NCBI GenBank assembly: GCA_030390025.1
Contig: CM059431.1
Span: 153,204,001-153,268,000, forward strand
Direction: 5' to 3'
DNA from: Squalus acanthias
Taxonomy: Eukaryota
Length of the DNA: 64,000 bases
The notes below the pieces were generated by a model, which ran no database searches, was not told the DNA's origin, and was given only the letters and a program-made list of their open reading frames with translations. Below, piece after piece: positions 1 to 54,907 of the stretch (position 1 is the first letter of the stretch; each line of letters opens with the position of its first letter). Made by a program: the position numbers and the translations under genes.

Positions 1-1590
1 GATACATGTCAGCCACAACACTATAAAACTGCCTGTTACACTGAACAGTAAAATGATGGATTTCCTCCGGCTCGCCATCTCTGGATCGCTCTGATTCTCA
101 CTGCAGTGACCCCGGAGACTCCTGCGGGCTCTACTGGCCACTAAAATACGTCTGACTGTCAAACAATTAAACAGTAATACCAAAGCGAAAGGAAGCCCTA
201 CACTAAAAACACTTTCGAACCAGATGAATGCTGTACCAACAGACGTGGTAAAAAAGCCCATTTTCAAGTGGCAACCCCAGTGAATATTGTTAATTATTCG
301 GTCAGCTTCATATGCAAACGAATAGGGGATATTGTCCAACCAGAGCAGAACAGAGACCGTTGTTATGACGACGGCCGCAGTTCTGACTGTGCAATATTTC
401 GTTTTAAACTTCTCACAACTTATCGCGACATAGCGGTCGAATGTGAAGGTGACGGTAAACCACACGGACATATCGAGGGCAGCAGCATTCAAGTATATAA
501 GCAACCTACAGATGGCCGTGTAGCCGAGGAATGAATGTGGAAAGTGATATGTAAAAACGCGATGCAGCAGCACATTGATGATCATGACCAGTAGATCTGC
601 TGTTGCCATGGCCACCATGTAGACAGAGATACATTTGGATAGACCACATTTTCCTCCGGAGAGAATCACGATTGTCAGTAGGTTCGCTGTAAGAAAGAGC
701 GACAAGCGGTCAGTAACGGGCACAGTCGGATAAATCTCACACCATATTGTGGGGAAATGTGCAGATGTGTCCTTATGCCGGCGGATTTTTAATTATATAG
801 CCGAGCGTTAACGAAGAGCTTTTTTAAAAAAAAAACATTGAACAATCAATATAGAGGGACTGAAAATCCGCCGCCCTTCCCTGCAAACATCAGACAGACA
901 TCGCCAAATATCAAATATATTTTCACAGCAATTACTGCAAAGATATAAATTCAAACGAAGCATTCAGTTGCGAGAACATCATTGAATTTAGGTCGAAACT
1001 CCGCGCTTTTTCTATGCACAATCGCCCTCGGAGGGTGGGGGAGCTGCTCGGTAACAGAGTGGGAGCGGTGGAGACGCGAATGTTCTTTGCAGCCGAGGGG
1101 AGTGGAGCAGCTCCTGAGCGGCAACTATTGCTGAAAGTGTCTTTCAAAGTCCCCTGTTGGATGTAGGTGGCTGCAGTCCGAGCAATTATCAACGCAAAAT
1201 AAGCAGGGTACAAGTGTACAACTGATGTGATTATTATCCACAGGAAGCAACACATCCTGTAGTGATCTCTATACTGTTGGAGGGGCCGGGGAATGTCAGC
1301 TTCGCCCTCCCTCAGTACAGGGAGGAAAGGCGAGCGCCCAGCACCCACGATCTACCAACCAGCCTCACCAGCCGCGTGGACTGGTTGGATTCCCACTGAA
1401 ATTCACCAACTTATCCCGATGGATAAGTGACTCTGCAATGAGGACATGCTGAGAATCATTACATAATCATTAACACTGAGATAGTCAATAGCCATTAGAC
1501 AACAGGATTCACTGACTTACCGGGAATGCCAAAGGCTGCAAGAGCTGGGTAGTAAATGATGCTGACCATTTGAATTGTTGGCAGCAACAT
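1..1590 (-). CDS. GPR139-like class A GPCR, copy 1 (exon 1 1590-1521, exon 2 686-<1; 3' end outside window)
   Basis: Exon 1 MLLPTIQMVSIIYYPALAAFGIP+G then GTAAGT donor; acceptor TTACAG at 687-692. Exon 2 is open to the window edge: ANLLTIVIL, MATADLLV, TFDRYVAI, KFKTKYCTV, PFALVLLFNCLTVRRI, RRKSIILLF. Confidence 0.85.
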
Positions 1591-1670
1591 TTTTTTTAGA
1601 AGAATATGTGACTTGTGTCCGGCAGTATGGTTAGCGTCAGAGTGCACATGCGATCCATAAATACTCTCCA

Positions 1671-1676
1671 TTTATA
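1671..1676 (-). promoter_or_regulatory. TATA box of GPCR copy 1
   Basis: TTC-TATAAA starting 86 nt upstream of the ATG; same context and near-identical spacing in copies 2 and 4. Confidence 0.55.
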
Positions 1677-2004
1677 GAAAACTCGGTGACCCGTTGAGAA
1701 TATTAGTCACACGACAATTGGCGTTAGTTACAGTCACTTAACCAACAAGGCAAGATGTTCCGCTCCAGTGTGCCTGGGACAAGAAAGGGGACATTTTACA
1801 ACTCAGTTCATGAAACTCCATTAATTCAAATTAATGAACGGGAACTCATAGCAGATGGAGTGTACTGTGCACAAGCACCGTGATACCCAAAGGGAACTGT
1901 CCACACGGGCACTGCGTTAGGTTACTTATGCCTCGTAATGATTCGTGCAATCTTAACTCATCCACTAGAAAGTTAAATTTAGGTTTGCTCCATGATGATA
2001 AATG

Positions 2005-53026: not shown

Positions 53027-53032
53027 TATAAA
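53027..53032 (+). promoter_or_regulatory. TATA box of GPCR copy 4
   Basis: GTTC-TATAAA-GGGGGAGC starting 83 nt before the ATG. Confidence 0.6.
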
Positions 53033-53109
53033 GGGGGAGCATTTCCGGATCTCAGATACACTCCAGTCAGAAACGTGAACCGGACAGAATTCACACAACC
53101 TTCTATAAA

Positions 53110-54907
53110 ATGGCACGGCCAATAATTCTACAGATAAAGGAAATTTACCATCCTGTTCTCGCAGCATTTGGTATTCCCGGTAAGTCCGTTTATTTTGTTG
53201 CTTAATAGCTGTTGACTATCTCACTGCTAATAATTATGTAACAGATTCCGAGAATACTCTCATTGCAGAGTCACTTATCCCAGCGAGCTGAATCGGGGAA
53301 TATCAGCGGGAATCCGACCAGTCCACGCATTCTGGACATTCGATCCTGAGCATCGTGCGCTCAGGATTCCTCCCTTTACTGTGGGAGGGCGAGGTTGATT
53401 CCCCGGCCCCTCCAACAGTATATTGTTCACTGCAGAATGTGTATGTTTTGTGCCCATGGTGATCATCTCATTTGTGCCGTTGTTCCCTGTCTATTCTAAG
53501 TTGATAATTGCTCGGATTGCAGCCACCTCCACCCAACAGGGGGCTTTGAAAGAGATTTTGAGCAATCACTGCCGCTCGGCTGCAAAGAACCTCTGCGGTT
53601 CCACCAGGTCTCGCTCTGTTCCCGAGTAGATCCGCTCGCGGTGATTATAAATCGGAAAATCCCAGGTTATCGACGTTTGTAGTATGCTTGCATTTCAGTT
53701 GAATGATAGCTTTGAATTCATATCTTTGCAGTAAATGCTGTAAAATGATTTTTAATATTTTTCGAGGACTGAAGGGACTATGCTGGAAGGACGCGGGATT
53801 TTAAGTCCCTCTAGTGTTCAAAGATTTATTCTTTTTAAACATGATGCCGTCAACGCTCGCCGATGTATAAAAAAGTATTACCGTGCATAACACTAAATAG
53901 GGACACATCTGAACTTTCCCCCACTTTATGTTTTAATGTATAGATGGGTGTTCCCGTGACATACCTCGTTTCCCTCTTCCTTACAGCGAACCTACTGACA
54001 ATCGTGATTCTGTGCGGAGGAAATTGCGGCCTTTCCAAATGTATCTCTGTCTACATGGTGGCCATGGCAACAGCAGATCTACTGGTCATGATCAACAATG
54101 TGATAGTGTATCACACTTTTACATATCACTTTCCAGGTTCTTTCCTGTCCTACACCGCAGTCTGTAAGTTAATTGTGTACGTGAATTCTCTCGCACTTGA
54201 TATGTCGGTGTGGCTTACAGTCCTGTTCACATTTGACCGATTTGTAGCTATATGTTGTGAGAAGTTTAAAACAAAGTATTGCACAGTCAAAACGGCTGTC
54301 GCTGTTGTAACAACCGCCACTGTCCTCTTCTGTTTAAAGAACATCACCTTTTGGTTTGCATATGAACCTGAGCGAATAACTAACAATGTTCCCTGGGGAT
54401 GTCGCTCCAGAGTGGACTTTTTTCTATCAGCTGCAGGTACAGCGTTCTTCTGGTTACAAAGTATTTTTATTCCATGGCTACCTTTTGCTTTGATATTACT
54501 GTTTAATTGTTTGACAGTCAGACGTATTTTAGTGGCCAGCAGAGCCCGCAGGAGACTCCGGGATCACAGCAGTGAGAGTCACAGCGATCCAGAGATGGAG
54601 AATCGAAGAAAATCCATTATCTTACTGTTCAGTGTATCAGGTAGTTTTATAGTGTTGTGGCTGACAGCTGCCGTGAGTTTTTTTAACTACCAGACTGACA
54701 AACCCCGAGCATAAGCGAGGCGATTATGCAGCTCCTGCATATGTCGCCACAGTAACCGGATATCTACTCATGTATTTGAGCTCCTGTACAAACACCTGCA
54801 TTTATGCAGCGACCCAAACTAAATTCAGGGAAGAGCTGAAGAAGTTGGTGACATCTCCTTGGGCATTGATTCTGACTTTGGTTAAATTAAATGTAAAATC
54901 AAACTGA
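53110..54907 (+). CDS. GPR139-like GPCR copy 4 (exon 1 53110-53179, exon 2 53987-54907), one +1 frameshift in a T7 run at 54678-54684
   Basis: MARPIILQIKEIYHPVLAAFGIP-A-NLLTIVIL. Removing one T restores ...GYLLMYLSSCTNTCIYAATQTKFREELKK...KSN stop. Confidence 0.78.

What the first reader, a model, noticed from the sequence alone, without database searches (positions are those of the whole stretch)
1521..53179. Each promoter-bearing receptor gene has the same minisatellite array just upstream, in fixed polarity
Seen: for copies 1, 2 and 4 the array ends about 380-430 bp upstream of the ATG (2005 vs 1590, 31800 vs 32183, 52685 vs 53110). It always reads CCAGTAATGTTAGAG on the gene's sense strand and is followed by a TATA box at -83 to -86. 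The array appears nowhere else in the window. Inference: the duplicating unit is array + promoter + GPCR. The array may drive cluster recombination or act as a multimerised regulatory or heterochromatin element, analogous to control of receptor-gene choice. I do not know of this pairing being described.
Basis: partly seen in the sequence, partly recalled or inferred. Interest (0 to 1): 0.75.

Follow-up and report, generated by a model that had tools for sequence, protein, structure and literature searches.

The report
Satellite rides shark receptor gene promoters
In this shark genome a 26-base repeat array, from a few hundred bases to over 40 kb long, ends about 400 bases before the start codon of most sampled genes of one large orphan-receptor subfamily and was not found away from their clusters; it was likely born once, copied along with each gene and renewed by ordinary repeat turnover, and no role in gene control is shown.

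Summary
The pairing is real and holds genome-wide. Of 100 sampled receptor genes, 89 have a sense-polarity 26-mer array upstream; in 80 of 87 measurable cases it ends 300-460 bp before the ATG. Of 30 arrays followed from the repeat side, 22 lead to a same-polarity receptor gene or fragment, 5 end at assembly breaks, 3 reach no gene, and none ends at an opposite-facing promoter. Correction: the arrays fill 29% of the window, and gene 1's array runs, broken by insertions, for 27 kb. The nine genes without the 26-mer form one old clade; eight carry a homologous 49-mer there instead. A distant subfamily has different arrays, upstream and in the intron. Units turn over faster than silent sites. The consensus stays fixed, but a neutral simulation with similarity-dependent unequal exchange reproduces this. 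Arrays of broken genes are no more decayed, and duplications usually extend past the array. Best reading: a self-renewing passenger satellite in a duplicating cassette. A regulatory role is unshown; the only hint is a modestly better-kept TAAT core. This scan reported the same pairing in other windows of this genome, and a 41-bp version in another genome. I found no paper describing it.

The parts
1..686 (-). Gene 1 exon 2 (class A GPCR; runs on past the window start). The spliced frame is open to a normal stop.
1521..1590 (-). Gene 1 coding exon 1 (70 nt, GT donor)
1671..1676 (-). Gene 1 TATAAA at -86
2003..3630 (-). Proximal block of gene 1's 26-mer array (about 63 units)
4581..28824 (-). 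Five further blocks in gene 1's polarity (4581-5726, 15343-17620, 19353-25799, 26408-26999, 27235-28824), separated by CR1-type, Harbinger-derived and other insertions
28825..29876 (.). Non-repeat spacer between the two head-to-head arrays; shared at 82-88% identity by paralogous pairs L026, L036, L038, L039
29877..31801 (+). Gene 2's 26-mer array (about 74 units)
32100..32105 (+). Gene 2 TATAAA at -83
32183..32252 (+). Gene 2 coding exon 1
33835..34742 (+). Gene 2 exon 2; spliced frame of 325 aa is intact; Pfam 7tm_1; relatives are auto-named 'probable GPR139' in sharks and rays
47762..49594 (-). Gene 3, a pseudogene: ATG at 49574, GC at the donor, stops and frameshifts, promoter absent, joined to the far end of gene 4's array
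49597..52685 (+). Gene 4's 26-mer array (about 119 units), with a recent 468-bp (18-unit) block duplication from 51171 (first two copies 100% identical)
53027..53032 (+). Gene 4 TATAAA at -83
53110..53179 (+). Gene 4 coding exon 1
53987..54890 (+). Gene 4 exon 2, frameshifted near 54680-54716; the frame stops at 54714 (likely pseudogene)

Best explanation
The 26-base array is a fixed upstream part of a duplicated cassette (array, TATA promoter, two-exon orphan class A receptor), and it likely persists as a self-renewing passenger rather than as a control element. Shown: fixed polarity and distance, confinement to these gene clusters, lengths from about 7 units to more than 40 kb, loss of unit-by-unit register between paralogues, and an unchanged consensus. 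Inferred: it arose once beside the promoter of the ancestor of this subfamily and its sister clade, where the unit is now a 49-mer. Inferred: it was copied inside larger segmental duplications. Inferred: it grows and shrinks in place by unequal exchange that favours neighbouring units that are still alike, which pulls each array back to the ancestral unit without selection.
For: Gene-first: 89 of 100 loci have a sense array; it ends 300-460 bp before the ATG in 80 of 87 measurable loci. Array-first: 22 of 30 arrays lead to a same-polarity gene or fragment and none ends at an opposite-facing promoter. All 65 hits of a one-base variant lie on C7:137-153 Mb, C29 or 20 unplaced scaffolds; 17 of those scaffolds have a listed family gene, and on the other 3 the array runs to the contig end. 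Close paralogues share sequence beyond the far end of the array: 6 of 8 pairs at silent-site distance under 0.03. The proximal 312 bp diverges faster than fourfold-degenerate sites in close pairs (0.098 vs 0.035; 0.146 vs 0.075), and unit register is lost by distance 0.10-0.15. The per-locus consensus is identical at 24 of 26 columns in 88 of 88 loci, with unit identity 0.78-0.95. A neutral simulation with similarity-dependent, growth-biased exchange gives replicate maxima up to 0.92-0.97 with mostly no consensus change, whereas similarity-blind fast turnover changes 2-3 columns. Arrays of broken genes are not more decayed than those of the nearest intact relatives (lower in 5 of 14, p = 0.67). 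A distant subfamily has its own fixed-position arrays, including an intronic 18-mer in 13 of 20 loci, so these cassettes collect satellites in general.
Against: TAAT columns deviate less than other A/T columns (0.100 vs 0.136; lower in 20 of 22 loci; rank 27 of 1001 four-column sets). The loci share ancestry, so this is not 22 independent tests. An array sits about 0.4-0.55 kb upstream of the ATG in three groups with different units: 26-mer, 49-mer, and an 18-mer in 4 of 6 distant-subfamily loci where exon 1 was captured. The 18-mer shows no significant likeness to the 26-mer (85 of 400 shuffles reach the score), so it may be an independent recruitment, which pure hitch-hiking does not predict. 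A first, balanced version of the simulation did not raise identity above about 0.85; the result depends on a growth bias that I chose.
Confidence: 0.62

Rival explanations
1. The array is a cis-acting control element: a natural multimer of a homeodomain-type site, or a heterochromatin seed, that would set the chance that a given receptor gene is switched on, as engineered multimers of the H-element core do for mouse odorant receptors.
For: Fixed distance and polarity. TAAT columns are better kept than other A/T columns, including the same trinucleotide context within the unit (column 5 at 0.101 vs column 16 at 0.165). An upstream array occurs in three gene groups. The family is large, clustered and diversifying (at least 177 listed loci plus at least 150 of a second subfamily), as chemoreceptor families are.
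Against: The core word is TAATGT in 54% of 7913 distinct units; the Lhx2 cores TAATGA and TAATTG named in the bioRxiv paper make up 2.9% and 0.3%. The sister clade's 49-mer consensus has no TAAT. Arrays of broken genes are not more decayed. Length varies more than 100-fold, and insertions of up to about 10 kb break the arrays. Proximal units are not the best kept (0.84 for the first five vs 0.86-0.89 further out).
Confidence: 0.18
2. The array drives the family's expansion: same-polarity arrays of different genes would misalign and recombine, setting duplication and conversion boundaries, much as 70-bp repeats do for trypanosome VSG genes.
For: Same polarity in all cassettes. Several rearrangement joints touch arrays: gene 3 here, L123 (array joined to the 3' third of exon 2), L033 (array joined to a truncated promoter), L096 and L097 (array inside the intron), L182 (inverted 49-mer after exon 1). 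Exchange between loci would also help keep one consensus.
Against: Close paralogues mostly share DNA beyond the far end of the array (6 of 8 nearest pairs; groups L002/005/014/083, L004/006/019/063, L026/036/038, L055/076/086, L071/077/079). The whole head-to-head layout of this window, spacer included, recurs in four paralogous loci. The joints listed are array-to-unique-DNA joins, not array-to-array crossovers. Every gene keeps its own TATA promoter, unlike silent VSG donors (recalled).
Confidence: 0.16
3. The pattern is largely an assembly product (collapsed or duplicated repeats, haplotype copies) rather than biology.
For: Some unplaced scaffolds carry identical or near-identical genes (L068/L074, L087/L090, L046/L057/L091) and may be allelic copies, which inflates counts. 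Several arrays end at gaps or contig ends.
Against: Units are 78-95% identical to the consensus and mostly distinct. Short-read contigs from three other organisms (C, E, G) bridge the array-promoter junction with more than 31 bases on each side (records 1, 2, 25; record 1).
Confidence: 0.03

Closest known systems
Beta-satellite blocks in the human 19p12 KRAB zinc-finger gene cluster (Eichler et al. 1998, Genome Res 8:791). Seen only as a citation in PMC2443715 and PMC2671837; the paper itself is not held. Lead from earlier scan notes; details recalled.
   Same: A satellite bound to an expanded tandem gene cluster, proposed to have spread with the genes. PMC2671837 (passages) also describes one orthologous beta-satellite block growing from about 4 kb to about 145 kb, like the length spread here.
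   Different: Unrelated sequence and gene family. Here the array ends at a fixed distance from the start codon, is in fixed polarity, and was not found outside these clusters, whereas beta-satellite is also pericentromeric. The arrangement here looks far older.
70-bp repeats upstream of Trypanosoma brucei VSG genes (PMC4858185; abstract and outline seen)
   Same: An oriented repeat upstream of each member of a very large gene family, with variable copy number.
   Different: There the repeat is shown to supply homology for gene conversion into an expression site. Here each gene has its own TATA promoter, and duplication boundaries mostly lie outside the arrays.
Mouse odorant-receptor H element and its engineered 4x21/5x21 homeodomain multimers (bioRxiv 10.1101/2022.05.05.489571; passages seen)
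   Same: Many copies of a short unit with a TAAT core upstream of a receptor promoter in a large clustered GPCR family.
   Different: The core here is mostly TAATGT, not TAATGA or TAATTG. The receptors are not odorant receptors. No expression, binding or singular choice is shown.
GPR139/GPR142-type orphan class A GPCRs (automatic database label of the relatives)
   Same: Pfam 7tm_1; the best 120 of 1782 homologues are shark and ray proteins, mostly labelled 'probable G-protein coupled receptor 139'.
   Different: No GPR139 chain appears among 14 solved-structure matches at E <= 0.001; the best are peptide receptors at weak scores. The label does not show orthology or ligand.

Membership tests
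Satellite co-duplicated with a gene cassette (19p12 beta-satellite/KRAB-ZNF type) | Repeat block present with most family members in a constant arrangement | tested here: met
   89 of 100 loci, sense polarity; 80 of 87 end 300-460 bp before the ATG
Satellite co-duplicated with a gene cassette (19p12 beta-satellite/KRAB-ZNF type) | Repeat inherited inside larger duplicated segments | tested here: met
   Shared far flank in 6 of 8 nearest pairs; unit register kept in close pairs (0.055 vs 0.26 off-register)
VSG 70-bp-type recombination boundary | Duplication or conversion boundaries fall in the repeat | tested here: not met
   Homology usually continues past the far end of the array; 42 loci only, and no test for short conversion tracts
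VSG 70-bp-type recombination boundary | Promoterless donor genes copied into an expression site (recalled) | tested here: not met
   A TATA-like word lies at -81 to -90 in 57 of 59 loci whose ATG was parsed
Odorant-receptor homeodomain choice enhancer (H element type) | Lhx2 core TAATGA or TAATTG repeated in the element | tested here: not met
   TAATGT 54%, TAATGA 2.9%, TAATTG 0.3% of 7913 distinct units; cores as named
Odorant-receptor homeodomain choice enhancer (H element type) | Motif columns under constraint | tested here: inconclusive
   TAAT 0.100 vs 0.136 for other A/T columns, non-independent loci; no difference between broken and intact genes
Odorant-receptor homeodomain choice enhancer (H element type) | Raises the probability of singular receptor expression in sensory neurons | not testable with these tools
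   Needs single-cell RNA and reporter or transgene work
GPR139/GPR142 orthologues | Closest characterised relative is GPR139 | tested here: inconclusive
   Label comes from automatic annotation; no GPR139 chain among 14 solved-structure matches; no tree with bony-vertebrate GPR139 was built
Common origin of 26-mer and 49-mer arrays | Sequence homology in the same polarity and place | tested here: met
   Profile score 22.9 vs shuffled 11.3 +/- 3.0 (0 of 400; antisense 10.0; an earlier run gave 1 of 300). A model of the sister clade's upstream 400 bp hits 26-mer arrays repeatedly in sense polarity.

The most novel reading that the evidence does not exclude
Sharks keep a very large, unrecognised receptor family (hundreds of genes in this genome) whose promoters each carry a natural multimer array. 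Different subfamilies use different units at the same place, and array length tunes how often each receptor is chosen or silenced. This would be a satellite-based receptor-choice system kept since before living sharks diverged.
Probability: 0.12. Interest if true: 0.88.

Novelty: new variant of a known kind. Interest (0 to 1): 0.48.

Why it matters
Even as a passenger, this is an unusually clean case of a satellite confined to the promoters of one gene family. It has probably stayed at a fixed distance from the start codon since before the main shark lineages split, while varying more than 100-fold in length and changing its unit in a sister clade. About 90 dated copies make it a natural test set for how homology-dependent turnover alone can hold a repeat consensus still. 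It also points to a very large orphan GPCR expansion in sharks and rays, animals described as poor in GPCRs and odorant receptors (PMC8455134 and PMC11979771, passages seen). If the arrays affect expression, they give a direct, allele-level handle on how these receptors are controlled.

Tried and rejected
Expression: no RNA holder was listed. Two runs guessed to be RNA gave only short pieces of array and exon, and no spliced joint among the rows shown. This is not evidence either way. A sequence look-up of earlier findings returned nothing. Homology of the distant subfamily's upstream 18-mer to the 26-mer or the 49-mer was not significant (85 and 121 of 400 shuffles). The correlation of array identity with share of distinct units (rho -0.84) was set aside because perfect units are identical by definition. 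A balanced neutral simulation did not reproduce the high-identity arrays; the growth-biased one did. Intact genes had slightly better arrays in a pooled comparison (0.871 vs 0.840), but this vanished in nearest-relative pairs. Flank sharing between distant pairs (21 of 619) was discounted as shared transposon tails. The tree is the quick version with a midpoint root, so gain versus loss is not decided by it. Literature: ten searches and term look-ups in PMC11979771, PMC8455134 and PMC11406177 found no description of this receptor expansion or of the repeat. The library lacks most subscription papers, and I read no supplements, where gene-family or repeat tables may list either.
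Full report
What is in the window. The window is G000:C7:153204001-153268000 of a 3.7-Gb genome. It holds four copies of a two-exon class A GPCR gene (Pfam 7tm_1). The best 120 of 1782 homologues are shark and ray proteins, mostly auto-labelled 'probable GPR139'. No GPR139 chain is among 14 solved-structure matches, so the label is not evidence of orthology. Genes 1 and 2 have open spliced frames, gene 4 is frameshifted near its sixth helix, and gene 3 is a promoterless pseudogene. 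The genes form two head-to-head pairs.

The observation. Tandem Repeats Finder and a motif search show a 26-bp unit (consensus CCAGTAATGTTAGAGTAGGGTCACCA): 403 matches against 0.18 expected. Arrays end 413, 382 and about 425 bp before the ATGs of genes 1, 2 and 4, in sense polarity, with TATAAA at -86, -83 and -83. Gene 1's polarity continues in six blocks to 28824, broken by insertions, and arrays fill 29% of the window. Gene 3 touches the far end of gene 4's array in the opposite sense. Paralogue L037 keeps a promoter and its own array on the matching reverse gene, and L025 and L027 carry the same junction as the window, so gene 3's layout is best read as a deletion.

Genome-wide, from the genes. 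Two protein searches listed 177 distinct loci, the top scorers of more than 4,400 candidates. I fetched 100 of the 177: all on C9, C29 and C31, at least one per scaffold, and every second one on C7. The sample leans to close relatives of the two queries, and some scaffolds may be allelic copies. Eighty-nine have a sense-polarity array upstream, nine have none, and two had no promoter within the 6.1 kb fetched (0 hits in 420 kb of shuffled control). In 80 of 87 loci with a modelled exon 1 the array ends 300-460 bp before the ATG; five lie further (522-1330 bp) and two nearer (187 and 189 bp). Seven loci have an antisense block further upstream; none has one directly before its promoter.

Genome-wide, from the repeat. 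The exact 26-mer occurs 2394 times and the reversed control 0 times. The listing begins at C7:136.96 Mb; the complete listing is in contig order, so C1-C6 appear to have none. All 65 hits of a one-base variant lie on C7:137-153 Mb, C29 or 20 unplaced scaffolds. I followed 30 arrays chosen because no adjacent gene was listed. Fifteen run straight into a promoter; the longest seen are about 44 kb on C2131 and 28 kb on C3615. Six reach a same-polarity gene across insertions, and one is joined to an exon 2 fragment. Five end at gaps or contig ends. Three reach no gene in the 18-38 kb read. None ends at an opposite-facing promoter. Contigs from three other organisms bridge the array-promoter junction.

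The exceptions. The nine genes without the 26-mer form one clade (support 100, quick tree, midpoint root) that also holds Heptranchias, Heterodontus and Scyliorhinus proteins. The clade is therefore older than the split of those sharks (roughly 200 million years or more; date recalled). Eight of the nine carry a 48/49-mer array or its remnant in sense polarity, ending about 440-580 bp before the ATG. The 49-mer aligns to two 26-mer units better than 400 of 400 shuffles, and a model of that clade's upstream 400 bp hits 26-mer arrays in sense polarity. All 20 genome hits of a 49-mer motif lie next to that clade's promoters, one array inverted after exon 1. I infer one old origin; I did not see the upstream DNA of the other species. 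A distant subfamily (47% identical over 135 aa, at least 150 hits, also on C1, C3, C28 and C30) lacks both units in 20 of 20 loci. It has a GC-rich 18-mer in intron 1 in 13 of 20, and a different 18-mer upstream of exon 1 in 4 of the 6 loci where exon 1 was captured. That upstream 18-mer is not significantly like the 26-mer.

How it behaves. Close paralogues keep units in register (mismatch 0.055 in register vs 0.26 out of register). This is lost by a silent-site distance of 0.10-0.15, and the proximal 312 bp diverges faster than silent sites (65 loci). Yet the per-locus consensus is the same at 24 of 26 columns in 88 of 88 loci, and unit identity ranges from 0.78 to 0.95, the high values in several separate clades. 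A neutral simulation addressed whether this needs selection. Balanced exchange left identity near 0.84. With exchange that needs similar neighbours and a bias to growth, mean identity rose to 0.86-0.91 in the faster settings, single replicates reached 0.97, and most replicates had no consensus change; similarity-blind fast turnover changed 2-3 columns (12 replicates per setting, parameters my choice). Selection is therefore not required. Among 42 loci with a visible far flank, 6 of 8 nearest pairs share it, 6 of 14 and 12 of 41 in the next distance bins, so arrays usually travel inside larger duplications.

Tests for function. TAAT columns deviate less than other A/T columns (0.100 vs 0.136; 20 of 22 low-redundancy loci). 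This agrees with earlier scan notes, but the loci share ancestry and mutation depends on context. The word is mostly TAATGT; the Lhx2 cores TAATGA and TAATTG are 2.9% and 0.3% of units. The 49-mer consensus lacks TAAT. Arrays of 14 genes with a broken exon 2 are not more decayed than those of their nearest intact relatives (5 of 14 lower). The units nearest the promoter are not the best kept.

Verdict. The best-supported mechanism is a passenger satellite that is copied with the cassette and renews itself by similarity-dependent unequal exchange (0.62). A cis-regulatory role (0.18) and a recombination-driver role (0.16) remain open. The nearest known arrangement is the beta-satellite/KRAB zinc-finger cluster of human 19p12 (seen only as a citation). 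Trypanosome 70-bp repeats (abstract) and odorant-receptor H-element multimers (passages) are the functional analogies; tested features of each were not met. Ten literature searches found no description of the family or the repeat, and supplements were not read. Earlier notes of this scan report the same pairing in other windows of this genome and a 41-bp version in another genome; they are leads, not support.

Noticed in passing
window 56945-61266: A PIF/Harbinger-type DNA transposon: a 386-aa DDE_Tnp_4 frame (57458-58618, +) and a minus-strand frame at 60111-60908 that looks like the Myb/SANT partner (recalled, not tested) and contains a 54-bp x5 repeat. Related shorter pieces lie at 11911-12764, 17697-18592 and 41682-42528.
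   Followed up: partly
window 44699-45321: A separate 21/43-bp tandem array (about 30 short units) between the 3' ends of genes 2 and 3.
   Followed up: no
window 3947-4578 and 14714-15342; 17621-17695 and 27016-27090: Non-repeat inserts inside gene 1's array occur twice at 91-93% identity, each first pair directly followed by array, as if insert plus array was duplicated within the array.
   Followed up: no
L161-L180 (distant subfamily): Fixed-polarity GC-rich 18-mer in intron 1 (13 of 20 loci, up to about 400 copies), an 84-mer in the intron, and an 89-mer expanded from a single promoter segment upstream of exon 1 in L169 and L175.
   Followed up: partly
L159:2037-2859; L143:2335-3006; L130:3603-3851: Another 48-bp satellite containing TAATTA, fused directly to the 3' end of a 26-mer array in L159 and present near receptor genes in L143 and L130.
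   Followed up: no
L182:341-9783 and L183: On C9 a 9.4-kb 49-mer array lies in inverted polarity directly after exon 1 of a sister-clade gene; no exon 2 was found in the 20 kb read beyond exon 1.
   Followed up: partly
L101, L121, L122, L149 (C7:136.96-137.00 Mb): A 26-mer array at the edge of the C7 cluster ends at non-repeat DNA; the following 38 kb has frames resembling retroelement proteins and other tandem repeats but no receptor gene.
   Followed up: partly
G000 C7:137-153.6 Mb, C29, C9:39 Mb, C28, C30 and many scaffolds: The receptor family itself is very large (at least 177 + 150 listed loci; 84 of 100 sampled exon 2 stretches without stop or frameshift) and was not found described in the papers searched.
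   Followed up: partly
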